In this document: piece by piece, positions 2,278-54,688 of the stretch
Layout of the letters: each line of letters begins with the position of its first letter
Position numbering within the stretch: the first letter of the stretch is position 1
NCBI RefSeq assembly: GCF_054482525.1
Contig: NZ_JBTHVG010000003.1
Length of the DNA: 64,000 nt
Direction: 5' to 3' (one strand)
From: a plasmid
Program-made: the position numbers and the translations under genes
The notes under the pieces: generated by a model
Told to the model about the DNA's origin: nothing
Database searches by the model: none
The model's input: only the letters and a program-made list of their open reading frames with translations

Positions 2278-2563
2278 CGCTCTATCATTGGTAAGGCTGT
2301 AAAATGTCTGCAAAAGGCCCCATCGGTAAATTGTTGGGGCTTTTTCTTTGCGTAGTTCTGATACGGTTTATCCTGTGGAGCATTATGGCCACCAGCCAGC
2401 TGGTGACTGGCCAACGCTTTGTATGACGTAGCCTACTCAGGGCAGGCTATTTTAGAGGGACCGATTTTTATCCGGGCTAATTTAGAAAGAGATAATTTGA
2501 ACTTAGGCGGGCTGACCACCAGCAGAGAGGTAAATCACTAGCCGGTGATATTGACAGAAGTCG

Positions 2564-2926
2564 TCAGGGGTTTAACGCCGGAATATTTTGCCAGGCCTCC
2601 TGCAAGGTCTGCAAGACTTCTACAAGTGATAGTGACGGCCACAGGACTGTTTCCGTCATTATCACTCCAGGTGGCTCGCACTCTACTGGTACCAGAATTA
2701 AAACAACACGAGTTCCTTTTACCTGGTAGGCAAGGTTTACTGCCGGTTGGCGGTAGGAGGCCAGTACACCCTCACCATATTGAGCAGGGTTACTTGCCCA
2801 GTTCCGCACCATTGCATACACCTGAGGCATATACCGACTATCCAGATCCCCTTTGGGCCGTCTGAACGGCACGATTTCTTCTGAGCGGTAGGTGGTCGTT
2901 GTTGTATTGGTTGTCATCTTTGTCAC
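2564..2926 (-). CDS. hypothetical protein
   Basis: ORF, co-directional with neighbours; Thr-rich N-terminus. Confidence 0.3.
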   Translation of the reverse strand: MTKMTTNTTTTTYRSEEIVPFRRPKGDLDSRYMPQVYAMVRNWASNPAQYGEGVLASYRQPAVNLAYQVKGTRVVLILVPVECEPPGVIMTETVLWPSLSLVEVLQTLQEAWQNIPALNP

Positions 2927-2982
2927 CTCCCCTGTTCGTCCATTTAGAGTTTTAAGCTGCTTTACACATCACACTCAACTGA

Positions 2983-3267
2983 TTATTTAAGCTGGTCATC
3001 GTCTCTGGCCAGCATAGCCCAACCATTCGACTGGTTTTCGCGGGAGTAAGGATTCATTTCAAAATAACTATCTACCGCGTCGCTGTCCGCAACAGAACTG
3101 TTGTTAGCTCTCTTTGAACCCTGAACCACTACAGCATCAACCTCTGCGGCTTTCCCGTTGCGCTGTACCAGGATTTTAACCGTCTTGGGCTTACGTCTTG
3201 CGAGCAGTTTGTTGGCGATAAAAAGCACAACAATCCAGGCCAAAAGCACGTATAAAAATTTATTCAT
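2983..3267 (-). CDS. small membrane-anchored hypothetical protein
   Basis: ORF with N-terminal hydrophobic helix; palindromic motif copy ~165 bp upstream. Confidence 0.35.
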   Translation of the reverse strand: MNKFLYVLLAWIVVLFIANKLLARRKPKTVKILVQRNGKAAEVDAVVVQGSKRANNSSVADSDAVDSYFEMNPYSRENQSNGWAMLARDDDQLK

Positions 3268-41282: not shown

Positions 41283-43703
41283 ATGAAACATCTCGCTTTT
41301 ATTACTGCTGTAGCCGGACTCGGTATGTCTGTTCAGGCCCCAGCTCAGATATATGAATCGGCCTTTAAGGACACGAACGGTATTGAGATCCACGCCCCGT
41401 CTTCTCGTCTTATGCTTAATCCGGCATCACCGGTAACTTTGACACTTATTTCAGGTCTTGATCGTTTCGTTAATGTCAAAGTCACGAAAGACACTGGAAC
41501 TGTCATTCTTAATACTACGACTACACGGACGGGTGTATCAGACCGACTAACAGCTGCTGACGGTAGTGAGTTCTACGGCAAAAAAGTAACTTTGCCTGCT
41601 TTGGGTGAAGGCAAATTTGTCGTTCAGATAAACGTGTTAGATCTCAATCAGAAGCCTGTAGCGACCTATAACTATAACTGGCTAATTGATGTCACCCCTC
41701 CAGCGGCAAATGCTCTTACCGCTAATACTGGTTCTGGCTCTACCGCTGGTGACGTGTGGAAGCTTGGATTAGAGGCAACGGGGCAGTATGACTTCACCTC
41801 TTCGGGCGTAAGTGATGCAAATGGTATTGATAAGGGCCTAATATATATTTACAGGCAGGACGGTAGCCTCTACAGCACTACACAGATGCAGTATGACGTA
41901 TCCGGCCAAAAGATGTACCACACTTACTCTAAGAATTCAGTTAAGGGAACCGGAATACCAGACAGCAACCTGGATGAAGACTTTACTGCAAAAGTTGTTA
42001 TCTTCGATAACGCAGGTAATAGCCGAACGCTGCCAACTCAAAAATTTCGCTACGACAACACGCTGGGTGAGATGACACTGTGGGCCGTTCATGATCCAAA
42101 TACGTCTTCCAGCGTCGTACCCGGGGTTTCTAATTATCCGGCTTACAAAGCCGGTATGGTCGTTAACGAAAACCCTATTCGATTAGTCTACCGGATCCCA
42201 AAATCTAACTACCGTGCTTATTCAGAAGGTGGGCTTCAGTTCATCAATCAATATTCCGCCCCCAAAGAGATAGCTGTAGACAGCACTTATGCTTATGTTG
42301 AAATGACTCTTCCCTATGGCTCAATTAATGGGGATATGGCTCGTATGGCGAACTTTGGCCAGTGGGGAGGGTATTATCCGTCATACAGCCTCGTTCTAAA
42401 CCCATCTGCAAACCAAACGCCTGCATTTGCGGGTACCTGGGTAGATTTCCTCGATGATAAGGGGAACTGGGTTAAGTGGAAGGATTTTGAGAGTGTGGCT
42501 TCATCACGACTGCCAATTAAAATTTCCCGACTTCGTTTTAACGTTGAAGCCCGGCCCTTTGCACAGGAGATCGGCGGTAAGGCGACCTGCACCATTCCGG
42601 CAGGAAAAACCTCGTGTGAAGCGCCTGAGACGTTTGATATGGCCTTGGGTACCCAGGGCTACAATAGAATCCTTTACTTCGTTCGCAGCATCAGCAATCC
42701 CATTTTGCGGTCTGAGCAATGGATTATGACACGCTGGAACAATAAACAACTGCCGGTAATAAACTCGATATCATATGACGAGACTAACAAGCAGCTGGAT
42801 GTACTGGCGTCACTTGAAGGCGATGGTAACTGGTTCGACTCGGTCTCATTGAGGGAATTTTATCTTTCCGATAAGAACACCGGTACCCGGATGTCACCAA
42901 CAGGCGTAATCAAATCTCGTATCTCAGGTAACTACACGATTGCTTATGATTTATCCCGTCAGTCTGAAGGAAAATACAACGTTGAGGTCAACATCAGGGA
43001 CTTCTTCCAGAACCAGACCAATAAAACTTTCGGAGAAATTGCTCTGGATAACACTCCTCCGACAGTGGCCATAACATTCGACGGAAAGCCGGTAAAAGAC
43101 GATACGGTAGTGTACGGCCTGGAGAACCTCAGGATCGCTCTGGCAGATAATCTGACAACCCCGAGGATAACCCGTCTTCAGCTCGTAGGTGGCCCCACAG
43201 CTGATAACGTTGAGCTTACGTGGTCACCGGCAGGCAAAGATACATACATGCCTGAGTATCCGAGGCTGTTCCCAAATTTCGAACCATCTGAAAATTATTC
43301 AATTAGCGTAACAGTTGCCGATAGTCAGTCGAATACCAAAACCTATACTCAGAAGTTCAGTTATCTACCGAATAACCTTGTGCAGTTACATAATCTACGC
43401 ACATTGTCGGTCAGTTCACCTCTCAAAACGACAGATGGCGTACCACTTGCGTACCTGTCCACTAACGTTCTGCGTAAGACAAATGGAGAAATTGCTAAAG
43501 GGGTCCAGAACGCAACGCTGACTGTGCGGAAGGATGCAGCCTTCGGTATTAAATTTAATGGGGCACAGGCGGCTCCAGGCGAGTCAGTTGAGGTGCAAAT
43601 AGATATGGGCCAGGGGGATAATCTTCTGTTACCCGTTTATCCTTCCGAAAATGGGAAAGTTGGCACCTCAGAATTCATGATTCAGATCGACGAGTTGAAG
43701 TAA
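41283..43703 (+). CDS. large secreted protein, paralog B
   Basis: Signal peptide, 806 aa, conserved blocks shared with paralogs A and C; ATG with AGGGGA RBS. Confidence 0.6.
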   Translation: MKHLAFITAVAGLGMSVQAPAQIYESAFKDTNGIEIHAPSSRLMLNPASPVTLTLISGLDRFVNVKVTKDTGTVILNTTTTRTGVSDRLTAADGSEFYGKKVTLPALGEGKFVVQINVLDLNQKPVATYNYNWLIDVTPPAANALTANTGSGSTAGDVWKLGLEATGQYDFTSSGVSDANGIDKGLIYIYRQDGSLYSTTQMQYDVSGQKMYHTYSKNSVKGTGIPDSNLDEDFTAKVVIFDNAGNSRTLPTQKFRYDNTLGEMTLWAVHDPNTSSSVVPGVSNYPAYKAGMVVNENPIRLVYRIPKSNYRAYSEGGLQFINQYSAPKEIAVDSTYAYVEMTLPYGSINGDMARMANFGQWGGYYPSYSLVLNPSANQTPAFAGTWVDFLDDKGNWVKWKDFESVASSRLPIKISRLRFNVEARPFAQEIGGKATCTIPAGKTSCEAPETFDMALGTQGYNRILYFVRSISNPILRSEQWIMTRWNNKQLPVINSISYDETNKQLDVLASLEGDGNWFDSVSLREFYLSDKNTGTRMSPTGVIKSRISGNYTIAYDLSRQSEGKYNVEVNIRDFFQNQTNKTFGEIALDNTPPTVAITFDGKPVKDDTVVYGLENLRIALADNLTTPRITRLQLVGGPTADNVELTWSPAGKDTYMPEYPRLFPNFEPSENYSISVTVADSQSNTKTYTQKFSYLPNNLVQLHNLRTLSVSSPLKTTDGVPLAYLSTNVLRKTNGEIAKGVQNATLTVRKDAAFGIKFNGAQAAPGESVEVQIDMGQGDNLLLPVYPSENGKVGTSEFMIQIDELK

Positions 43704-43804
43704 CTACCCGGAGCCGACAGTAAAACTGACGGCTTCAATTTTACTGCCCTCCTCGACTCCGATCAGCCAGTACGTCTTCAGAGATTCGCAAGGAAGAACC
43801 GAAA

Positions 43805-43817
43805 GAAAAGTTACTTT
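43805..43817. promoter_or_regulatory. palindromic motif copy (gaaaagttacttt)
   Basis: Read directly; 3' of paralog B, next to iteron field. Confidence 0.3.
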
Positions 43818-43868
43818 AATCGTACGTTTCCAGCGATGCTTTCAAAAGACAATGCATACTCGTTGATT

Positions 43869-44350
43869 ACGACAATGGGAGTGAGTGTCGAACCCCTTGA
43901 GTAAGGATACCTGGTAAATATACAGCCCCGGGGATTCTCTTCCTTCAACCGGGGATGACAACGGGAGTGAGTCCGGCAACTCACACCTGTTGTCACTTCT
44001 CTGACATATCGTCATACGAGCTTACTCAAGCGCATCCACAAAGATGGGATCGTTTTGAATCTAAACTGGTACTGGTTAGCCAGTCACTTGCATCTACTCC
44101 CCCGTCGATATTTAAGTGACAATTGTAGTGATCTGCAATACTGGTGTCTCAGAAACACTGACGACGGTAGAGACTCAATACCCTAACCCCTGACAACAGA
44201 AGTGAGCTTAGAGGTGTTACGCTGCTGTCACCTAATGCTTGGGAATTGCCTGACTCACAACCATTGTCATCCGGAGCTACTGATTAACGTTGAACCGCTG
44301 GACTTTAATGACAGTGGTAGTGATGGATAGGCTCATTTCCATTGTCGTCA
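43869..44350. repeat. iteron-like palindromic repeats (distal part of the repA downstream repeat field)
   Basis: At least five units with gacaaYRRgagtga half-sites, the same core as the 46076-47320 array. Confidence 0.55.
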
Positions 44351-44354
44351 TTTT

Positions 44355-46055
44355 ATCGGAGAACCACGGCAGCCTGGCGGCTGCAAATTGAAAACCGCCC
44401 CGGTTCGTCCTGTTGTTGCCGCACGCCCCGCAGAATATGTATGCTCTGAGGACCTGTTTTATTAAGGACTCATCCCCTTATGTTGACCCGCAAAAGTATC
44501 GATACAGTTCTGCTCTCTGTTGGTGCTGAGAAGCTCTCACAACGAGAATGGGACTGGATGAAAATGCTCAAACCCATGGACCCACCACCTGCGATGGTGA
44601 CGACCTCCATCCTGAAGCGCCGTGGCGATACAGCAGCCCTTACCCTGCTACAGGATACCGGGGTTTAATCCATCCTCATGTTGTCCGGTTTTACTCCCCG
44701 CCCTCTGAAACGTCTGTTCACAGCCAACCAGTGCTGGACGTCCTTCCTGGATGCGGGCGGTCTGCGCGATATCGAGGTTGAAGCCGTCACCAAAATGCTG
44801 GCCTGCGGCACACGGATACTGGGTGTAAAAGAGTTCGGGTGTGATAACCCGGACTGTCAGCACGTAAAGTACCTGACCAACTCATGCGGCAGCCGTGCCT
44901 GCCCGTCCTGCGGAAAGAAGGCCACAGACCTGTGGACAGCAACACAGCTGAATCGTCTTCCTGACTGCGACTGGGTACATCTGGTCTTCACCCTGCCGGA
45001 CACGCTGTGGCCGGTGTTCGAAAGCAACCGCTGGCTGCTGAATGACGTGTGCCGTCTGGCGGTGGAGAATCTGCTGTATGCCGCCCGAAAACGGGGGCTG
45101 GAACCCGGTATCTTCTGCGCCATCCACACGTATGGCCGTCGTCTCAACTGGCATCCGCATGTACATGTGTCTGTAACCTGTGGAGGTCTGAATAAGCATG
45201 GTCAGTGGAAAAAGCTGAGCTTCCTGAAAGACGCGATGCGTTCACGGTGGATGTGGAATATGCGGCAGCTGCTTCTGAAAGCGTGGTCAGAGGGGATGGC
45301 AATGCCGGAGTCGTTGTCACATATCACGACGGAATCACAGTGGAGAAGCCTGGTGCTGAAATCCGGCGGAAAATACTGGCATGTGTACATGTCGAAGAAG
45401 ACAGCCGGAGGGCGGAATACGGCACGCTACCTGGGTCGTTATCTGAAGAAGCCACCAATAGCGGCTTCCCGACTGGCTCATTACAACGGAGGGGCAAGCC
45501 TGAGCTTCCGTTACCTGGACCACAAAACGGGAGAAACGGCGACGGAAACGCTGACACAGCGTGAGCTGGTCGCGAGGCTGAAACAGCACATCCCGGAGAA
45601 GTTTTTTAAGATGGTGAGGTACTTCGGGTTCCTTGCCAACCGTGTGTGTGGAGAGAAGCTGCCGCAGGTGTACCGTGCACTGGGGATGGATAAACCGGAA
45701 CCAGTGGCGAAAGTGTGCTATGCACAAATGGTGAAACAGTTCCTGAGTCGTGACCCGTTCGAATGCGTGCTGTGTGGCTGCCGGATGGTATACCGCCGGG
45801 CCATTGCGGGGCTGAATGTATCAGGGCTGAAGAAAAACGCGCGGGATATCAGTCTACTGAGGTATATGCCGGCCTGACACAGGCTAAGTGTGCCCGGGAA
45901 TCGGTGAAAGTATAAAAAACAGCCTGTTACGGTATAAAAATCGACCATACAGAGAGGGAAACCACCGGAGTGGTGGGAAAAGCAGAAAGGCTCACGTGGC
46001 ATAAGGCGTGGACAATGGTATCGACTGGTTTTTCAATTTCCTATACGTCAAGCCT
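44355..46055 (+). mobile_element. IS91-family insertion sequence (IS1294-like); ends approximate
   Basis: Rolling-circle transposase gene plus small upstream ORF; no inverted repeats; right end near '...tttttcaatttcctatacgtcaag'. Interrupts the iteron field. Confidence 0.6.
44678..45877 (+). CDS. IS91-family rolling-circle (HUH/Y2) transposase
   Basis: N-terminal Zn-binding 'CQHVKYLTNSCGSRACPSCG', HUH-like 'WHPHVHV', C-terminal Tyr-containing region. Confidence 0.75.
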   Translation: MLSGFTPRPLKRLFTANQCWTSFLDAGGLRDIEVEAVTKMLACGTRILGVKEFGCDNPDCQHVKYLTNSCGSRACPSCGKKATDLWTATQLNRLPDCDWVHLVFTLPDTLWPVFESNRWLLNDVCRLAVENLLYAARKRGLEPGIFCAIHTYGRRLNWHPHVHVSVTCGGLNKHGQWKKLSFLKDAMRSRWMWNMRQLLLKAWSEGMAMPESLSHITTESQWRSLVLKSGGKYWHVYMSKKTAGGRNTARYLGRYLKKPPIAASRLAHYNGGASLSFRYLDHKTGETATETLTQRELVARLKQHIPEKFFKMVRYFGFLANRVCGEKLPQVYRALGMDKPEPVAKVCYAQMVKQFLSRDPFECVLCGCRMVYRRAIAGLNVSGLKKNARDISLLRYMPA

Positions 46056-46075
46056 CTTCGTCCTACAGGTTTAAG

Positions 46076-46925
46076 CTGACAATGGTAGTGATTGGATGAT
46101 CTCACTACTGTTGTCACTCAGTTCTTTGAGCGGACCCTTCCCTCGGTTGGTCGGCATTAACAACGGTAGTGACTCGATTGGCTCACTGCCATTGTCATCG
46201 TGTAAATGACGTACCTTATCAGCTCAGCTGAAAGCAATGACAACGGTAGTGACTCTAATTGCTCACTGCCATTGTCGTCGTGTCTATTGAGAGCCTTATC
46301 AGTGCACCTGAAAAGCAATGACAACGGTAGTGATTCTAATGGCTCACTACCGTTGTCACCGTGTGTATTGAGAGGATGGTCCACTTAACTGGACGTATAT
46401 GACAATGGTAGTGACTTTAATAGCTCACTACCATTGTCGGTGTGTGAATTGAGAGGATGAGCAGCTCAGCTGTACGTCCATGACAATGGTAATGACTTAA
46501 TGAGCTCACTACCGTTGTCACCCTGTTAATTAAGAGGCTCATCTGCTCTTCTGGAAGGCTATGACAACGGAAGTGACTTGCTGGGCTCACTGCCATTGTC
46601 GCCGTATGAATTGAGAGGATCATCCGCTCTTCTGGATGGCAATGACAACGGTAATGACTTAATAGGCTCACTACCATTGTCACCCTGTGAATTGAGAGGA
46701 TGATCTGCTTAACCAGACGGCCATGACAACGGTAGTGACTTTCTGGGCTCAATACCGTTGTCACCCTGTGAGTTAAGAGGTTGACCCGCTCTACTGGACG
46801 GCCATGACAACGGTAGTCACTTTCTGGGCTCACTACCGTTGTCGCCATATAGAATGAGAGGAGCATCAGCTCAACTGAACGGCAATGACTACAGTAATGA
46901 GCTGGATGAAGCATAACCATTGACA
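46076..46925. repeat. tandem array of ~81-bp units, each containing a palindromic iteron pair
   Basis: Unit starts read at ~46076, 46157, 46236, 46318, 46399, 46480, 46561, 46642, 46723, 46804, 46885; unit core atgacaacggtagtgac-N-gctcactaccgttgtcac; degenerate copies continue to ~47320. Confidence 0.8.
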
Positions 46926-47388
46926 TCTGGCCCAACCGGAAGCCGTATTCGCCAATCCAATCGAGATTCACAATGGCCGTGACTCGCCGCATTAAGTTCC
47001 GGTGTCCTCCCAAAGCTGAACGCACACTCGGAGGACAATGACAATGCCAGTAAGGTACACATCATTACCATTGTCACTATAGCTACCAGAGAAGCCGGGA
47101 TTTGAATGTCGATGGTAGTGAGTGGGTCAACTCACTGCCATTGTCACCCCGTTACGATATTTTCCGTTGGATGTACTGGCCAATGAAGTAAAGCGTAGAA
47201 ACCGGGTGTTAACAGGTGACTCAGGAGAAAGCGTTGAATTTCGCAATCTCGATCTACATAGGGTGGTAGAGAACAATGACAACGGTAATGACTTTTGACT
47301 CATTACCGTTGACGTGAAAGAGCGGGCTGGGACTAACGAAAATCGAAGAAGTAATTTAGCACCCGGAGCCTAAACCGCCGGGTTAACT

Positions 47389-48477
47389 TTAGCTGGCGTT
47401 GCTGTTCTTTTTCTGGCTTCGAAGACTACGAATATAGCGCAGTTCTTCAGCGGTTAAATCATGGACGGTAAGAACATCATCGCCGTCAATCGGGTCAGCT
47501 GGTGGGCATAACTCACCTTCTAAAACAGAAGACCCTGAGTTCTCTTCTTCATCTTCAACCACTTCTAAAGGAGGCTGAGTATTGTTCAAATTCAGATCGG
47601 GATCCCGCTTATGAATCTGGAAGTATACTTTTCCGTCTTTCTTAATTTCGGTGTACTTGAGGTATCCTATCGATGCCAACTCTTCAAGAGCCTTTCTCAC
47701 GGTAGCATTCTGACTATTTGCTCGTGTTTTGAGGTTCAGACGATTTTTCAGCCGAGTAAGGGATATCGGTATAGGATTTGGCGGTAATGACTCTATGAAC
47801 GTATAGAGAGCCTGGGCGCTTTCCTTCTTGGCCAACTCCTTAATTGCCTTCAGCTGCATCAAAACCTTATGATCGTATTGATAGAGCTCGAAAATCTTAG
47901 GATCAACCTGAAGGACAACCTGATCTGATTCCGGGTCTAACAGGGCAGACTGTACCAGATGCGTTGTATAGACTTTGGACGAGTTATTACTGGTGAACGA
48001 CAAGGTAACGGATGCTAACCTGCGTAAGGAGGCGTCTATACGTTTTCTGGACGCTGTAGATGAGCGATAATTTTCAGGCGTACATAGCTTGAGGAATTCA
48101 GTGAATTTTAAGCTTATCGTGTCATTGTTAATCGGATGATTGGCATAGGTTCGAATGATGCCCATCCACGTCTTAAAATCTACTGACATATTAAGACGCT
48201 CACCGACAATTGAAATATTGGTGAACCCCTCGCTCTCCATTAAAGAGAGCGTCTGTAACTCTTTCGTTGCGTCAAAGCCAACCGTTTTATATTCCCGATT
48301 TTGACGCCCCACACTCTTTGGTGATGGGACGAACAGCCCGAGCCGCATCAAAGCAATAGACTGCACCGTACGGTTGCTGTTAGGACGCAAAATGATGTCT
48401 TTACCTGATTCTTTCTCTCTAACAGAGAAAGCCCTGGTGACCAGGTCCTGCTGCTCAGTATCTTTCTCTTTAGTCAT
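47389..48477 (-). CDS. repA: iteron-type replication initiator RepA (P1/RepFIB group)
   Basis: Segments 'NRTVQSIALMRLGLFVP', 'DFKTWMGII', 'AQALYTFIESLPPNPIPISLTRLKNRLNL' match my recollection of P1 and RepFIB RepA; flanked by iterons on both sides. Confidence 0.75.
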   Translation of the reverse strand: MTKEKDTEQQDLVTRAFSVREKESGKDIILRPNSNRTVQSIALMRLGLFVPSPKSVGRQNREYKTVGFDATKELQTLSLMESEGFTNISIVGERLNMSVDFKTWMGIIRTYANHPINNDTISLKFTEFLKLCTPENYRSSTASRKRIDASLRRLASVTLSFTSNNSSKVYTTHLVQSALLDPESDQVVLQVDPKIFELYQYDHKVLMQLKAIKELAKKESAQALYTFIESLPPNPIPISLTRLKNRLNLKTRANSQNATVRKALEELASIGYLKYTEIKKDGKVYFQIHKRDPDLNLNNTQPPLEVVEDEEENSGSSVLEGELCPPADPIDGDDVLTVHDLTAEELRYIRSLRSQKKNSNAS

Positions 48478-48548
48478 AATAAGTTATCACTGAATGTGTA
48501 AACAGATTGGTGAATAGTAAGCCCCAGCGAACTCTATGTCACTGGATG

Positions 48549-48719
48549 GATCATTGTGATGATCCATATCTGTGCATAAGTTCTACCTAAAAAAACGACT
48601 CCACTCATTAAAACTTGGCAAAAACTCTTTGCATACAATGACCTGCAACTCTTATCAACAACGGATCAGATCAAGTTAAAAAGATCTAATGAAAAGTCAC
48701 TACTATTGTCGCTCTGATC
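48549..48719. promoter_or_regulatory. repA promoter/origin-proximal region with six GATC sites and a palindrome
   Basis: GATC at 48549, 48561, 48664, 48669, 48683, 48716; palindrome ggatcattgtgatgatcc; DnaA-box-like ttatcaaca near 48652. Confidence 0.4.
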
Positions 48720-48800
48720 ACTACTGATGTCAAAAAACTCATTACCAACGTTATAATAATCACTACTAATGTCAAAATAATCACTACTGTTGTCACTGAT
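48696..48800. repeat. upstream iteron cluster 1 (five ~21-bp direct repeats)
   Basis: Repeats of cactacYRWTGTC at ~21-22 bp spacing, ~220 bp 5' of repA. Confidence 0.65.
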
Positions 48801-49108
48801 CACGTCTCAGGCCTTGTGCCGTCTGGCCTGGAGGCAGCGGGGATCTCTTTTGATCTATCAGGAACACTAAGGTACTAATTATTGGAACTACCTTGTGGAA
48901 AATGGGGATAAATAAATGCTTAGTTCTTATACAGGTCTCAACTTGCCTCCCTGATAAAAACTGTCGTCAAAGCTAAATCGCAGCCACAGGCATTTTCGGT
49001 GGATAAATTTTTGAGAAATAGAAGCATACATGCAGACTCGTGTCGCAAGTAATTGAAAGTAATGATTTATTTAAATAATGCGAGTCACCTTACCTCACAG
49101 TGGAAGTT

Positions 49109-49220
49109 TAAGTCTAACCTCACTACCATTGTCACTTAAAATCATTACCAACGTCGAAATAGTCTCTACCATTGTCTTTTAAGTCACTCCCGTTGTCACT
49201 TATGTCGCTACTGTTGTCAG
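49109..49220. repeat. upstream iteron cluster 2 (five ~21-bp direct repeats)
   Basis: cactaccattgtcac-like repeats at ~21-bp period. Confidence 0.6.
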
Positions 49221-49447
49221 TGACAATGCTCCAGCCCAGTAACCATGCGGCCTACAGCGTACCGGGATCTTCTTTGTACTCTCTGGCACCTTTGGGATCA
49301 TTTATTGGATCTACATGAGGGATAAAATCTTTTGACGATTTCGTAGTGCAGTTATACCAGCGACTTAGCAAGACAAAAGCTGCAATTTAGTGACGAGTTA
49401 CTAGTCTGCCCAACAAGAGCAATGCAGAGAAGATATGTGGTGAAATG

Positions 49448-49481
49448 ACCATGGTAGTGAGTCTAATCACTACCATGGTCC
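49448..49481. repeat. isolated palindromic iteron pair
   Basis: gaccatggtagtgagtctaatcactaccatggtc. Confidence 0.55.
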
Positions 49482-49584
49482 GCAGTAAGCGTTACTTACG
49501 CAATGAACGTCGGACTGATTTGCAACAACATGGGCTACGGCGCATCAGAAGGCGGCCGTTGTGCTTCAGCAAAACAGCCCTGCT

Positions 49585-52041
49585 TTATTTTAATTCTTCA
49601 ATGTTAATCATGAACTCAGATCTGCCAGTAAGGCCGGATACAGCAGGGAAAATAGGAAAGCTACGGCTGTCCCCGAGCCCCAAATCCAGTTGAAGCTCTT
49701 TGCTTTCACCTGGCATCGCAGAAACGCCATTTACAGTCACGCCGAATGCAGCGTCCTTACGGACAGTAAGCACTGCGTCCTGAAGCCCTGTAGCGATTGA
49801 ACCATCCTTTTTACGCAGCTGGCTGGCATACAGAACAGCCAGAGCAGTATTGTCAGATGTTTTGAGAGAAGCATTGACAGCTAAGGTTTTCAGATTCTCT
49901 AGCCTGACGAGATTGTTTGGAAGGTAGTTAAATTCGACTGAGCTTTCTTTAACGTTGTTCATCTCATCTTTGGCCTGAACTGTGAGAGTGTATGTTTCGC
50001 CTTCATTAAGAGACGGAAAGATCTTGGGATAATTAGGTGCATACAGGTTGTTTCCCAGATTCACCCAAGACAATTCCACCGCATCAGAAACAGGGCCACC
50101 GCGAAGAGTCATACGGCTTAAGGATGGTTTAGTTAGAGCATCGGTGAGCTGTATACGGACGTTCTCCAGCCCATATACTGTTACGTTTTTGCTGATCGGT
50201 TTTCCTTCGTAGCTAATACTTACAGATGGTGCTGTATTATCAACGACAACTGTTTGATAAGGGAGGTTACCGGTATTGTTGAATGTATCTTGGGCATTAA
50301 TCACCACGTTATAACTGCCTTCTGGTACCTCTTTCATGTTGAACTCATACGTGTAGTTCCCAGACGCCATATTTCTACCTGTTTGTTTGCCGGTTACGCT
50401 TATTTCTGCGTTGTTACGGTTTTTATCTGACAACCAAACTCGATTTACATAAACATGGTCGAAATATGAACCATCTCCAGGTTGATTCACGTAAACCTGG
50501 AGAATGTTGGTGGTTTCATTGTAATCAAATCCAGTGACGGAGGGACCCAGTGTATGCCAGGCTATATTCTCCCATATAGGGGCAAAGAAGGTTGCTTCGG
50601 TGGTTGACCTTACTTCATAGCCACTATGAAGATAACCGGTAGTGCCATTTATAATATCCTGGGGCAAAGAGACGGTACAGGTTGTTGAGCCAGCTGGAAT
50701 ACTGCATGTTGCTCCGCCAGTGATTTTTTGATCATATGGCCTGGCCTGTACATTGAATCGGATATTAGTAAGTTTTATAGGCATATCAGATGCCTTGAAC
50801 AGGTTCCAGTTTACGCTGTTGAACCATGTTCCATCAGCCTTTTGTCGTTCTATGGGTGAACTTCCCCAAGCCGGACTCTTTACAGAGGCAGGATCCCAGT
50901 TGAGCCAGCTGGCATACTGACCAAGATCTCCTCCAGACCATTGATATGTATTCACAGGTCTATAGTAGTTTCCATCTAAGGCACCCTGTGGCAGCTTAAC
51001 TTCCACGTAGACATAGGTGGCATCTTCGGAAAGGACCTGTACTCCGCCATAGTTATTGGTAATGCTCATGCCACCATTTCGATATGGCTTCCAGTTAGTT
51101 CTTGGGATACGTATAACCAACTTGTAGGGGTTTTCCAGCACTGTAAGGCCTCGTTTAAACGGGACGTATCCCGAAGAAATGCCGGGTACAACACTGGTGC
51201 TTACACGTGAGTCATGAACTGCAAATGGCGTAAATTCTCCCATTTGATCGTCATATAAAAACCGCTGGGGAGGAATGTTAAGCGTATTTCCTGCCAGGTC
51301 CGTAACGATGAAATTGAAGGTGAATTCTTCATCAAGATCACTTGAGGGCATGCCAGCCTGGGTGTTCATATCTTTAATCCACGGATAGACCGCACGTTTA
51401 TTGGCTGTGTCATAACTCAGGTTATTGTCGGAGACCACAGAACCATTACTTCGTTTAATGACAAGACGGATCTTGTCAATTCCACTAGCATCCTCAATAC
51501 CGTCTGCAAATATAGAAAACTGGCCACTACCGCCTCGGCCCAACTCCCAAAGTGGCCCAGAAAGTACCATGTCGTAACCTGCGTTTTGACTCGGATAAAT
51601 ACTCTTATAGCGTGGAGGAGTTGTATCAACGATGAAATGATAAGTAGATGTGCTCACTACAGTCTGGCGAATATCCAGAGTTTCATTGACTACAGTAAAG
51701 GTCCCTTCTCCGAGCGCCGGTAGAACCATATCCTTTCCATAGTATTCTGTTCCATCGGCAGCAACGATACGATCTGCAACGCTCGTTTTGGTCGAGACGG
51801 AGGAATACATAACCTTTTTATCGCTGTCTCGTGTGACCGTCACTCGCTCGTACCGATCAAGACCCGATATCAAGTTCAGAGTCAAAACACCAGCGGGATT
51901 AAGATATGTTTGTGTTGCAGGTTTGATATTCCGAACAGCCTTATTGGTATCTGTAAATGAGTAGCTAAATACCTGAGCATGTGCCGAAGATACAGTAGCA
52001 AGGGCAGTTGCAACCATGCAGCCAATTAGAGTTTTACGCAT
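49585..52041 (-). CDS. large secreted protein, paralog C
   Basis: Signal peptide 'MRKTLIGCMVATALATVSSAHA', 818 aa, blocks shared with A and B; ATG with GGAG RBS; two palindromic motif copies 150-235 bp upstream. Confidence 0.6.
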   Translation of the reverse strand: MRKTLIGCMVATALATVSSAHAQVFSYSFTDTNKAVRNIKPATQTYLNPAGVLTLNLISGLDRYERVTVTRDSDKKVMYSSVSTKTSVADRIVAADGTEYYGKDMVLPALGEGTFTVVNETLDIRQTVVSTSTYHFIVDTTPPRYKSIYPSQNAGYDMVLSGPLWELGRGGSGQFSIFADGIEDASGIDKIRLVIKRSNGSVVSDNNLSYDTANKRAVYPWIKDMNTQAGMPSSDLDEEFTFNFIVTDLAGNTLNIPPQRFLYDDQMGEFTPFAVHDSRVSTSVVPGISSGYVPFKRGLTVLENPYKLVIRIPRTNWKPYRNGGMSITNNYGGVQVLSEDATYVYVEVKLPQGALDGNYYRPVNTYQWSGGDLGQYASWLNWDPASVKSPAWGSSPIERQKADGTWFNSVNWNLFKASDMPIKLTNIRFNVQARPYDQKITGGATCSIPAGSTTCTVSLPQDIINGTTGYLHSGYEVRSTTEATFFAPIWENIAWHTLGPSVTGFDYNETTNILQVYVNQPGDGSYFDHVYVNRVWLSDKNRNNAEISVTGKQTGRNMASGNYTYEFNMKEVPEGSYNVVINAQDTFNNTGNLPYQTVVVDNTAPSVSISYEGKPISKNVTVYGLENVRIQLTDALTKPSLSRMTLRGGPVSDAVELSWVNLGNNLYAPNYPKIFPSLNEGETYTLTVQAKDEMNNVKESSVEFNYLPNNLVRLENLKTLAVNASLKTSDNTALAVLYASQLRKKDGSIATGLQDAVLTVRKDAAFGVTVNGVSAMPGESKELQLDLGLGDSRSFPIFPAVSGLTGRSEFMINIEELK

Positions 52042-52275: not shown

Positions 52276-52535
52276 ATAGACGCTGCTCCTTTATGTTTGC
52301 CAATTGTGCTGATATGTTTGTAAATTCAAGGAAGCGAGATTTTAAAAGCATCTGTTGAGTCAAATTTATGTAAAATAACAGGGAAACCATCACTTCTAGG
52401 TTGAGGAAACCCAATGTTATACATGCTCTTATGCTGTTTTCTGATAGACTGGCCCCCTGAATCTCCAGACAACCAATATCACTTAAATAAGTGATAGTCT
52501 TAATACTAGTTTTTAGACTAGTCATTGGAGAGCAG

Positions 52536-52901
52536 ATGATTGATGTCTTAGGACCGGAGAAACGCAGACGGCGTACTACACAGGAAAAGATCGCTATTGT
52601 TCAGCAGAGCTTTGAACCGGGAATGACGGTCTCCCTTGTTGCCCGGCAACACGGTGTGGCAGCCAGCCAGTTATTTCTCTGGCGCAAGCAATACCAGGAG
52701 GGAAGTCTTACTGCTGTGGCCGCAGGAGAACAGGTCGTTCCTGCCTCTGAACTTGCTGCTGCCATGAAGCAGATTAAAGAACTCCAGCGCCTGCTCGGCA
52801 AAAAAACGATGGAAAATGAACTCCTTAAAGAAGCCGTTGAATACGGGCGTGCAAAAAAGTGGATAGCGCACGCGCCCTTATTGCCCGGGGATGGGGAGTA
52901 A
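52536..52901 (+). CDS. insC: IS2 InsC (OrfA)
   Basis: '[26 protein letters not shown]...' recognised as IS2 OrfA. Confidence 0.85.
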
Positions 52902-53764
52902 GCTTAGTCAGCCGTTGTCTCCGGGTGTCGCGTGCGCAGTTGCACGTCATTCTCAGACGAACCGATGACTGGAAAGATGGTCGCCGCAGCCGTCACTCAG
53001 ATGATACGGATGTGCTTCTCCGTATACACCATGTTATCGGAGAGCTGCCCACGTATGGTTATCGTCGGGTATGGGCGCTGCTTCGCAGACAGGCCGAACT
53101 TGATGGTATGCCTGCTATCAATGCCAAACGTGTTTACCGGATCATGCGCCAGAATGCGCTGTTGCTTGAGCGAAAAACCGCTGTACCGCCATCGAAACGG
53201 GCACATACTGGCAAAGTGGCCGTGAAAGAAAGCAATCAACGATGGTGCTCTGACGGGTTCGAGTTCCGCTGTGATAACGGAGAAAAACTGCGAGTCACGT
53301 TCGCGCTGGACTGCTGTGACCGTGAGGCACTGCACTGGGCAGTCACTACGGGCGGCTTCGACAGTGAAACAGTACAGGACGTAATGCTGGGAGCGGTGGA
53401 ACGCCGCTTCGGCAACGAGCTTCCGGCGTCTCCAGTAGAGTGGCTGACGGATAATGGTTCATGCTACCGGGCTAATGAAACACGGCAGTTTGCCCGGATG
53501 TTGGGGCTTGAACCGAAGAACACGGCGGTGCGGAGTCCGGAGAGTAACGGCATAGCAGAGAGCTTCGTGAAAACGATAAAGCGTGACTACATCAGTATCA
53601 TGCCTAAACCAGACGGGTTAACGGCAGCAAAGAACCTTGCAGAGGCGTTCGAGCATTATAACGAATGGCATCCGCATAGTGCACTGGGTTATCGCTCGCC
53701 ACGGGAATATCTACGGCAGCGGGCCAGTAATGGGTTAAGTGATAACAGGTGTCTGGAAATATAG
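52859..53764 (+). CDS. insD: IS2 InsD (OrfB)
   Basis: 301-aa ORF overlapping insC 3' end; recognised as IS2 OrfB. Confidence 0.85.
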
Positions 53765-53918
53765 GGGCAAATCCATCTGATGCTCAACAGTACATTCGTT
53801 ATGTTCAGAGCAATGTCTGCAATAAGTAAAGGATCCGCTAAAGAAAACCGGTCTGAAATATCGCTGATAGTCCTAGCAACACTTGGAATCGCATCACCAT
53901 TCAGGTAATGACTCCAAC

Positions 53919-54422
53919 TTATTGATAGTGTTTTATGTTCAGATAATGCCCGATGACTTTGTCATGCAGCTCCACCGATTTTGAAAACGACAGCGACTTC
54001 CGTCCCAGCCGTGCCAGGTGCTGCCTCAGATTCAGGTTATGCCGCTCAATTCGCTGCGTATATCGCTTGCTGATTACGTGCAGCTTTCCCTTCAGGCGGG
54101 ATTCATACAGCGGCCAGCCATCCGTCATCCATATCACCACGTCAAAGGGTGACAGCAGGCTCATAAGACGCCCCAGCGTCGCCATAGTGCGTTCACCGAA
54201 TACGTGCGCAACAACCGTCTTCCGGAGCCTGTCATACGCGTAAAACAGCCAGCGCTGGCGCGATTTAGCCCCGACGTATCCCCACTGTTCGTCCATTTCC
54301 GCGCAGACGATGACGTCACTGCCCGGCTGTATGCGCGAGGTTACCGACTGCGGCCTGAGTTTTTTAAGTGACGTAAAATCGTGTTGAGGCCAACGCCCAT
54401 AATGCGGGCGGTTGCCCGGCAT
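53919..54422 (-). CDS. insB: IS1 InsB
   Basis: 167-aa ORF overlapping insA end. Confidence 0.85.
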
Positions 54423-54616
54423 CCAACGCCATTCATGGCCATATCAATGATTTTCTGGTGCGTACCGGGTTGAGAAGCGGTGTAAGTGAACTGCAGTTGC
54501 CATGTTTTACGGCAGTGAGAGCAGAGATAGCGCTGATGTCCGGCGGTGCTTTTGCCGTTACGCACCACTCCGTCAGTAGCTGAACAGGAGGGACAGCTGA
54601 TAGAAACAGAAGCCAC
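54341..54616 (-). CDS. insA: IS1 InsA
   Basis: 91-aa '[43 protein letters not shown]...'. Confidence 0.9.
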
Positions 54617-54688
54617 TGGAGCACCTCAAAAACACCATCATACACTAAATCAGTAAGTTGGCAGCATCACCCACCATTCATTGTCGCA

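What the first reader, a model, noticed from the sequence alone, without database searches (positions are those of the whole stretch)
43869..46075. IS91-family element inserted inside the iteron field, separating five iteron-like units from the main array
Iteron-like palindromes of the same core occur at 43869-44350 and resume at 46076, on both sides of an IS91-family (rolling-circle) element. The insertion has therefore probably split a once-contiguous control-repeat field, which could alter copy control or incompatibility. IS91-family elements can also mobilise adjacent DNA by one-ended transposition.
Basis: inference. Interest (0 to 1): 0.45.

Follow-up and report, generated by a model that had tools for sequence, protein, structure and literature searches.

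The report
IS1294 inserted in IncHI2 iteron array

Summary
Confirmed and ordinary. The window is IncHI2 plasmid backbone, 99.95-99.99% identical to pE105-4 over the aligned backbone segments. Window 44361-46048 is a 1,688-bp IS1294. It is 100% identical to a copy that the literature names IS1294. It starts with GAAC plus a subterminal palindrome (terIS), ends ...TTTCCTATACGT (oriIS), abuts a CAAG target, and has no target duplication or deletion.

In 1,035 of 1,123 PLSDB IncHI2 records the two flanks are contiguous ("ttatcgga|caagcctc"), so the element split a once-continuous field.

The repeats share the 15-bp core TGACAAYGGTARTGA, with 55 hits against 4.65 expected by chance. The same core forms two sets of five direct repeats 21 bp apart upstream of repHI2 (the origin side). 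Downstream it forms a roughly 80-bp phased series of head-to-head pairs. The IS sits in the linker between the second and third phased units, leaving nine weaker half-sites on the far side.

No half-site, rep gene or origin repeat is damaged. I infer that the effect on copy control is small; this was not tested.

Two side findings. Nine distinct IS1294 insertion sites around repHI2 (the window's plus eight in related plasmids) all point toward the origin. A different IS91-family element occupies exactly the same nucleotide position in p4FM-mcr1, which hints at a target hot spot.

The parts
43870..44347 (.). Distal (left) iteron-like cluster, now cut off from the main array. Nine half-sites of the core TGACAAYGGTARTGA: pairs 43956/43981 and 44309/44333, singles 43870, 44117, 44159, 44191 and 44255. 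Mean 1.7 mismatches per half-site.
   Evidence: Phasing of 79/80 bp with the main array once the IS is removed.
44361..46048 (+). IS1294, 1,688 bp, a complete copy. The terIS end is on the left and the oriIS end on the right.
   Evidence: Exact insert relative to IS-less pTHO-010-1. 100% identical to copies in 9 other loci, including the copy named IS1294 in pNDM13-SR33.
44361..44384 (+). terIS end: terminal GAAC (5'-GTTC on the other strand), then the subterminal palindrome GCAGCC-TGGC-GGCTGC at 44369-44384.
   Evidence: Read from the sequence. Matches the published description of IS1294 terIS (PMC13181058).
44480..44668 (+). Small 62-aa ORF upstream of tnpA (WP_000957857.1, hypothetical protein). 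No family match.
44678..45877 (+). tnpA, 399 aa, HUH Y2 transposase of the IS91 family (WP_000948429.1).
46049..46052 (+). Target tetranucleotide CAAG (5'-CTTG on the minus strand) abutting oriIS. It is native backbone and is not duplicated.
46077..46925 (.). Main array: 11 units with an 80-81 bp period. Each unit is a head-to-head pair of 15-bp cores with a 10-bp spacer plus a 41-bp linker. The last unit is degenerate. Mean 0.6 mismatches per half-site over the first 10 units.
   Evidence: The literature describes 80-81 bp 'long iterons' in R478.
46968..47314 (.). Rep-proximal irregular units: a single at 46968 and pairs 47039/47062, 47107/47132 and 47277/47300.
47389..48477 (-). repHI2 initiator gene, 362 aa (WP_000159529.1).
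   Evidence: Annotation. 50-62% identical to RepFIB-type RepA proteins that carry PF01051.
48697..48795 (-). Five direct iterons with 21-bp spacing, proximal to the rep start codon.
49120..49219 (-). A second set of five direct iterons with 21-22 bp spacing. The A+T-rich stretch between the two sets is the putative origin.
49446..49481 (.). Isolated head-to-head pair of the same core.

Best explanation
The window is IncHI2 plasmid backbone carrying the RepHI2 replicon. The initiator gene repHI2 (47389-48477, minus strand) has two clusters of five direct 21-bp-spaced iterons upstream, on the origin side. Downstream it has a field of about 1.76 kb holding roughly 38 half-sites of the same 15-bp core, mostly as head-to-head pairs in an ~80-bp phased series.

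A complete 1,688-bp IS1294 (44361-46048) entered this field by rolling-circle (HUH/Y2 transposase) transposition. Its oriIS end joined next to a CAAG tetranucleotide (5'-CTTG on the other strand). The insertion point is the linker between the second and third phased units. There was no target duplication and no loss of backbone. Nine weaker half-sites now lie 1.7 kb further from the main array.

What is shown: the identity and ends of the element, the target rule, the former contiguity of the field, and the fact that no half-site, rep sequence or origin repeat is interrupted.

What is inferred: iteron-mediated control (initiator titration and origin-iteron 'handcuffing', as established for P1 incA and F incC) works at a distance and in trans, so the functional consequence is probably small. 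The insertion is then a recent, near-neutral event. It leaves an active IS whose read-through (one-ended) transposition would carry the left-hand iteron units and the Ig-like protein gene.
For: - **Exact insert.** Flanks are 100% identical to the IS-less pTHO-010-1, and the insert is exactly 44361-46048.
- **Empty site is the norm.** It is contiguous in 1,035 of 1,123 IncHI2 records.
- **Family and name.** IS91-family transposase. The element is 100% identical over 1,688 bp to the copy in pNDM13-SR33, which PMC13340070 calls IS1294.
- **Target rule.** Thirteen further distinct sites mapped in other plasmids were all flanked at oriIS by GAAC, CAAG or CGAG with no duplication. This fits the published rules (PMC13181058).
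- **Iteron core.** It is enriched 12-fold over shuffles and shared by the upstream direct repeats and the downstream field.
- **Phasing.** The ~80-bp phasing continues across the empty site.
- **Initiator type.** RepHI2 is 50-62% identical to Rep_3/RepFIB initiators.
- **Literature.** Long 76-81 bp iterons with functional activity are reported for R478 RepHI2A.
- **Divergent relatives.** Two loci with Rep 85-88% identical keep the same core, the two upstream direct clusters, and a dense downstream field that fills the whole intergenic region.
- **Tolerance of insertions.** Complete plasmids exist with IS1294 at 43795, 44291, 47270, 48926 and 49040. The last two lie between the two sets of origin iterons.
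- **Second replicon.** The near-identical pE105-4 carries a second RepB-family initiator gene just past the window's end.
Against: No measurement of copy number, incompatibility or Rep binding is available here. tnpA is transcribed toward the array and antisense to repHI2, and no convincing terminator lies between them, so a regulatory effect cannot be excluded. The exact junction is absent from PLSDB and from 5,426 complete E. coli genomes, so the persistence of this allele in nature is undocumented. RepHI2 itself gives no significant Pfam, NCBIfam or PDB sequence hit. Its classification as a Rep_3 protein rests on homologues.
Confidence: 0.85

Rival explanations
1. The insertion is functionally significant. 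By separating nine half-sites from the array, or by sending tnpA read-through transcription into the array and antisense to repHI2, it changes RepHI2 copy control or incompatibility.
For: The IS lies inside the phased series. tnpA points at the array and at the rep 3' end with no clear terminator between them. The allele is rare: it is absent from PLSDB and from the E. coli complete genomes.
Against: No half-site is destroyed, and rep and the origin iterons are intact. The displaced sites are the weakest, with mean 1.7 mismatches against 0.6 in the array. Iteron control acts at a distance and in trans in P1 and F (established knowledge). Plasmids carrying far more disruptive IS1294 insertions at 47270, 48926 and 49040 exist as complete records. 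A second replicon is present in the backbone.
Confidence: 0.2
2. The left cluster is decayed relic DNA rather than working iterons. On this reading the IS sits at the edge of the functional field, outside it, and splits nothing that matters.
For: Spacing is irregular and mismatches are more frequent. Between the two IncHI2 lineages, 4 of 14 substitutions fall in half-sites against 3.0 expected by chance. That gives no sign of purifying selection, though the test has low power.
Against: The units at 44230 and 44309 keep the 79/80-bp phase of the array. In the R478-like lineage the 43956/43981 pair is close to consensus. In two divergent relatives the whole downstream intergenic region, up to the next gene, is packed with good half-sites at irregular spacing. 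Irregular spacing is therefore normal for this field.
Confidence: 0.25
3. The two repeat clusters are naturally separate, and the intervening DNA is an old resident of the backbone.
For: None found.
Against: 1,035 of 1,123 records have the empty, contiguous site. The insert is 100% identical to IS1294 copies on unrelated plasmids.
Confidence: 0.01

Closest known systems
IS1294 (IS91 family; Tavakoli et al. 2000)
   Same: 100% identical over 1,688 bp to the copy named IS1294 in pNDM13-SR33. Same ends: terIS GTTC plus a palindrome, and oriIS ...CCTATACGT. No inverted repeats and no target duplication. The target tetranucleotide has T in second position and lies next to oriIS.
   Different: Nothing in the element itself. 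Only the insertion site is new relative to PLSDB and the E. coli complete genomes. The target here is 5'-CTTG rather than the 5'-GTTC usually quoted for IS1294.
RepHI2A replicon of R478 (Page et al. 2001; Gilmour et al. 2004)
   Same: Same initiator: the R478-like lineage differs by only about 2% in the field. Same 80-81 bp 'long iterons' near repHI2.
   Different: This lineage has one fewer 81-bp unit than pC16_001 (R478-like) or p22C057LT1, and two fewer than p17Sal018. The array is interrupted by the IS. I could not read the primary papers, so their repeat maps were not compared base by base.
P1 incA / F RepFIB downstream iteron arrays (copy-control loci of Rep_3-type replicons)
   Same: The layout is origin iterons, then rep, then a second iteron array downstream. 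RepHI2 is 50-62% identical to RepFIB-type RepA proteins.
   Different: The downstream sites here are mostly head-to-head pairs in ~80-bp units rather than single 19-21 bp direct repeats. A control role for the array was not tested here.
IS1294 and a related IS91-family element (probably IS1294b; name from memory) in or next to the RepHI2 field of other plasmids: pE105-4, p602A1-220K-mcr3, p22C057LT1, pSI102-1, 1205p1, p4FM-mcr1
   Same: Same or closely related element, same replicon, same orientation rule. p4FM-mcr1 has the insertion at the identical nucleotide.
   Different: The sites differ (43795, 44291, 47270, 48926, 49040) except in p4FM-mcr1. There the element is the 1,713-bp relative.

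Membership tests
IS91 family / IS1294 | HUH Y2 transposase with an N-terminal zinc-binding domain | tested here: met
   NCBIfam NF033538 at 309.6 bits (cutoff 125). Pfam Y2_Tnp at 1.6e-57 and Zn_Tnp_IS91 at 3.7e-21.
IS91 family / IS1294 | No terminal inverted repeats and no target-site duplication | tested here: met
   The empty site 'ttatcgga|caagcctc' compared with the filled site shows no duplicated bases. The two ends are unlike each other.
IS91 family / IS1294 | Target tetranucleotide 5'-GTTC or 5'-CTTG abutting oriIS; terIS ends in 5'-GTTC next to a palindrome | tested here: met
   CAAG at 46049-46052. GAAC at 44361-44364, followed by GCAGCC-TGGC-GGCTGC. Thirteen further distinct sites mapped in other plasmids show GAAC, CAAG or CGAG. 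Rules taken from PMC13181058.
IS91 family / IS1294 | Sequence identity to a copy named IS1294 | tested here: met
   100% over 1,688 bp to the element in pNDM13-SR33 (CP092912), which PMC13340070 describes as IS1294. The ISfinder reference itself was not available.
IS91 family / IS1294 | Rolling-circle transposition activity, including one-ended events | not testable with these tools
   Literature only.
Iteron-controlled replicon (Rep_3 / RepFIB type) | Initiator belongs to the Rep_3 family | tested here: inconclusive
   Direct Pfam, NCBIfam and PDB sequence searches gave no significant hit. Homologues at 50-62% identity carry PF01051 and are named RepFIB RepA or RepB family.
Iteron-controlled replicon (Rep_3 / RepFIB type) | Tandem direct repeats of about 17-22 bp beside the rep gene | tested here: met
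   Two sets of five cores at 21-22 bp spacing, at 48697-48795 and 49120-49219. The layout is conserved in divergent relatives.
Iteron-controlled replicon (Rep_3 / RepFIB type) | The repeats flanking the IS share the origin iteron core | tested here: met
   The same 15-bp core occurs in all clusters: 55 hits against 4.65 expected.
Iteron-controlled replicon (Rep_3 / RepFIB type) | Rep binds the repeats, and the downstream array exerts copy control or incompatibility | not testable with these tools

The most novel reading that the evidence does not exclude
The linkers beside iteron palindromes of the RepHI2 field may be a genuine landing hot spot for IS91-family rolling-circle elements, with insertion orientation set by forks leaving the RepHI2 origin in both directions.

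Support:
- Two different canonical elements occupy the identical nucleotide and orientation: IS1294 in the window and a 1,713-bp relative (probably IS1294b; name from memory) in p4FM-mcr1.
- Another IS1294 sits 69 bp away in pE105-4.
- All nine distinct IS1294 sites within a few kb of repHI2 have tnpA pointing toward the origin. The extra copy of the 1,713-bp relative to the right of rep in p4FM-mcr1 does too.

If true, Rep-bound iteron arrays (fork pausing or exposed single strands) would attract HUH transposases. IS orientation would then serve as a natural record of which plasmid origin fires and in which direction.
Probability: 0.25. Interest if true: 0.5.

Novelty: already known. Interest (0 to 1): 0.22.

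Why it matters
It matters little in itself. IS1294 and the RepHI2 long-iteron replicon are both described, and the insertion breaks no functional element. It is useful as an exact structural marker for tracing this IncHI2 sub-lineage. It also shows that the downstream iteron field tolerates insertions.

The side observations could be worth a systematic survey: a strict orientation flip of IS1294 across the origin, and the same site used by two different IS91-family elements. They bear on how rolling-circle IS elements choose targets and on which of the two IncHI2 origins is used.

Tried and rejected
- **Primary papers.** Page et al. 2001 and Tagg et al. 2014 are not held. The original IS1294 record AJ008006 is not in the collections. 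I therefore tied the name to a literature-named copy instead.
- **RepHI2 family searches.** Pfam, NCBIfam and PDB sequence searches found nothing significant. Homologues were used instead. I did not run a structure prediction because homology settled the point well enough.
- **Folding the IS ends as single strands.** Energies were no better than shuffles, with z-scores of 0.16 and -0.76. I cite the terIS palindrome only as read from the sequence.
- **Promoter and terminator scan.** Nothing rose above background.
- **Selection test on left-cluster half-sites between the two IncHI2 lineages.** 4 of 14 substitutions fell in half-sites against 3.0 expected. This is uninformative.
- **Hot spot by frequency.** Only 13 of about 1,123 IncHI2 records carry IS1294 within a few kb of the field. 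The region is not frequently hit. The hot-spot idea rests on site coincidence, not on frequency.
- **Orientation search bias.** My first orientation tally was biased, because the search joined only same-strand pieces. I repeated it with a reversed-IS chimeric query.
- **Sister-plasmid check.** p4FM-mcr1 does not share the window's IS2 and IS1 insertions. Descent from a common IS-bearing ancestor is therefore not supported, though it is not excluded.

Full report
**1. What the window is**

The region matches more than 1,000 IncHI2 plasmids of Escherichia, Salmonella, Enterobacter and relatives. The aligned backbone segments between 29998 and 64000 are 99.95-99.99% identical to pE105-4 (NZ_CP072315.1), apart from the IS differences described below. 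Annotated relatives place repHI2 (WP_000159529.1) at window 47389-48477 on the minus strand. Large Ig-like-domain protein genes lie on either side, at 41283-43703 and 49585-52041.

**2. The repeats**

The 15-bp core TGACAAYGGTARTGA, allowing up to 3 mismatches, occurs 55 times in the window. Dinucleotide-preserving shuffles give 4.65 on average and 10 at most. All but five hits lie between 43870 and 49481; one of those, at 46010, falls inside the IS.

Upstream of repHI2 there are two clusters of five direct copies with 21-22 bp spacing, all in one orientation (48697-48795 and 49120-49219). They flank an A+T-rich stretch. A head-to-head pair lies at 49446/49467. This is the classical iteron-origin layout.

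Downstream of repHI2 the same core appears mostly as head-to-head pairs, with 15-bp arms and a 10-bp spacer. Eleven units have an 80-81 bp period at 46077-46925 (Tandem Repeats Finder: period 81, 9.3 copies). Irregular units lie at 46968-47314, next to the rep stop codon.

Left of the IS there are nine further half-sites:

| Position | Form |
|---|---|
| 43956/43981 | head-to-head pair |
| 44309/44333 | head-to-head pair |
| 43870, 44117, 44159, 44191, 44255 | singles |

These are weaker than the array sites: mean 1.7 mismatches per half-site against 0.6 in the first ten array units. About 0.035 hits would be expected there by chance.

Reviews citing Page et al. 2001 and Gilmour et al. 2004 describe 76-81 bp 'long iterons' beside repHI2 in R478. 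One also says that cloning experiments suggested they are functionally active.

RepHI2 itself gets no significant Pfam, NCBIfam or PDB sequence hit. It is, however, 50-62% identical to many RepFIB-type RepA proteins that carry PF01051, the Rep_3 family.

**3. The inserted element**

Against the IS-less pTHO-010-1, the window's flanks are 100% identical and end at 44360 and 46049. The insert is therefore exactly 44361-46048, or 1,688 bp.

- The empty site reads ttatcgga|caagcctcttc.
- The filled site reads ttatcgga|GAACCACGGCAGCCTGGCGGCTGC ... TTTCCTATACGT|caagcctcttc.
- No base is duplicated or lost.

The element encodes a 399-aa IS91-family transposase (NCBIfam 309.6 bits; Pfam Y2_Tnp and Zn_Tnp_IS91). 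A 62-aa ORF lies upstream.

The left end carries GAAC (5'-GTTC on the other strand) followed by a 6-bp-stem palindrome. The right end abuts CAAG (5'-CTTG). Both fit the published description of IS1294: terIS cleavage site 5'-GTTC next to a palindrome, target tetranucleotide next to oriIS, no target duplication (PMC13181058; PMC5043248).

The element is 100% identical over its full length to the copy in pNDM13-SR33, which PMC13340070 names IS1294. In all 13 further distinct sites I mapped in other plasmids, the oriIS end abuts GAAC (9 sites), CAAG (3) or CGAG (1).

**4. Did it split a continuous field?**

Yes. A 611-bp probe across the empty site is contiguous in 1,035 of 1,123 PLSDB records that match it. 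All are at least 95% identical.

With the IS removed, the unit at 44309 lies 80 bp from the unit at 46077. The degenerate unit at 44230 lies 79 bp further left. The IS therefore sits in the linker between the second and third members of the phased series.

The exact filled junction is absent from PLSDB and from 5,426 complete E. coli genomes.

**5. Is the left cluster part of a working field?**

Direct evidence is lacking. Two IncHI2 lineages differ at 14 of 769 positions here. Four of those fall in half-sites against 3.0 expected, which is uninformative.

In two divergent relatives (Rep 85-88% identical; L012, L013) the same core is retained. So are the two upstream direct clusters. A field of about 1.3-1.4 kb, with 29-34 half-sites at irregular spacing, fills the downstream intergenic region up to the next gene.

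Irregular distal units are therefore a conserved feature. The regular 81-bp array of IncHI2 looks like a local amplification. Its copy number varies: one extra unit in p22C057LT1 and pC16_001, two extra in p17Sal018.

**6. Likely consequence**

Nothing functional is interrupted: no half-site, not rep, not the origin iterons. By analogy with P1 incA and F incC, where iteron arrays act at a distance and in trans (established knowledge), moving nine weak sites 1.7 kb away should matter little.

Tolerance is also suggested by complete plasmids with IS1294 at 43795 and 47270 (p602A1), at 44291 (pE105-4, CP090540), and inside the putative origin at 48926 (p602A1, p22C057LT1, pSI102-1, pJT01) and 49040 (1205p1). 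A second RepB-family initiator gene in the backbone lies just beyond the window's end.

This inference is untested. tnpA is transcribed toward the array and antisense to repHI2 with no clear terminator between them.

One-ended transposition, documented at 1-14% of events for IS1294 and IS1294b, proceeds from oriIS past terIS. It would therefore carry DNA to the left of 44361. The first surrogate end, GAAC, is at 44292.

**7. Side observations**

(a) *Orientation.* I searched with chimeric queries carrying the IS in either orientation. Nine distinct IS1294 sites lie within a few kb of repHI2.

| Side of rep | Sites | tnpA strand |
|---|---|---|
| Left | 41375, 42874, 43795, 44291, 44360, 47270 | plus |
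| Right | 48926, 49040, 50292 | minus |

There are no exceptions. Target tetranucleotides are about equally available on both strands. A two-sided sign-type probability is about 0.004.

This matches the published IS91-family bias 'against fork movement' (PMC3971601), provided forks leave the RepHI2 origin in both directions.

(b) *Same site, different element.* In p4FM-mcr1 a different, canonical 1,713-bp IS91-family element (probably IS1294b; name from memory) sits at exactly the window's insertion point and orientation. Its flanks are identical to the window's. Full-length copies 100% identical to it occur on many other plasmids. p4FM-mcr1 does not share the window's IS2 and IS1 insertions.

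Either this CAAG is a preferred target, or one element replaced the other. I could not decide between the two.

**8. Verdict**

The observation and the main interpretation are correct. The thing itself is a known IS in a known replicon, so novelty is low. The functional claim remains open and is probably minor.

Noticed in passing
window 41375-50292 (sites mapped from L001-L005 and L014-L016): All nine distinct IS1294 insertion sites around repHI2 have tnpA pointing toward the origin: plus strand to the left of rep, minus strand to the right. The switch lies between 47270 and 48926. This is consistent with the published IS91-family orientation bias against fork movement and with bidirectional firing of the RepHI2 origin.
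   Followed up: partly
L017 5201-6913 (p4FM-mcr1), equivalent to window 44360|46049: A different canonical 1,713-bp IS91-family element (402-aa transposase, unrelated 5' region; probably IS1294b, name from memory) occupies exactly the same nucleotide position and orientation as the window's IS1294. Either the site is a target hot spot or one element replaced the other.
   Followed up: partly
window 44291|44292 (pE105-4 = L003/L007; also NZ_CP090540.1): The closest relative in PLSDB (99.95-99.99% identical over the aligned backbone segments) carries IS1294 69 bp to the left, at a GAAC, in the same orientation, and has nothing at the window's site. The two are independent insertions in sister plasmids.
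   Followed up: yes
window 48926 and 49040 (L004, L005, L014, L015, L016): At least five complete plasmids carry IS1294 between the two clusters of direct origin iterons, inside the putative RepHI2 origin. In one of them (1205p1) a deletion reaches window 55321. Either the distal iteron cluster is dispensable or these plasmids rely on the second replicon.
   Followed up: partly
window 52446-53775 and 53904-54671: Relative to pE105-4 the window has two extra adjacent insertions: a ~1,330-bp IS2-like element (IS3-family orfA/orfB on the plus strand) and a 768-bp IS1 (insA/insB on the minus strand). Short overlaps of the alignment blocks at their boundaries are consistent with short target duplications.
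   Followed up: partly
window 47389-48477 (-): RepHI2 gives no significant hit in Pfam, NCBIfam HMMs or PDB sequences, although homologues at 50-62% identity carry PF01051 (Rep_3).
   Followed up: partly
window 46077-46925; L005, L006, L008: The number of 81-bp units varies between plasmids: one extra unit in p22C057LT1 and pC16_001, two extra in p17Sal018.
   Followed up: partly
L012 6259-9623 and L013 6260-9468: Divergent RepHI2-like replicons from sequencing-run assemblies (Rep 85-88% identical) keep the same 15-bp core and the two upstream clusters of direct repeats. Their downstream field is irregular rather than an 81-bp array. A second Rep3_N-type gene lies about 1.7 kb upstream of rep.
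   Followed up: partly
window 47277-47314: The last palindromic iteron pair, about 75 bp past the repHI2 stop codon, also scores as a terminator-like hairpin followed by a T-rich tail on the minus strand. It may double as the rep terminator.
   Followed up: no
L010 (pJZ27-tet(X4)) 12-1700 and 2287-3212: On an unrelated F-type plasmid, IS1294 again lies a few hundred bp downstream of a RepB-family initiator gene and points toward it, just beyond a small set of iteron-like repeats. This is the same geometry as in the window.
   Followed up: no
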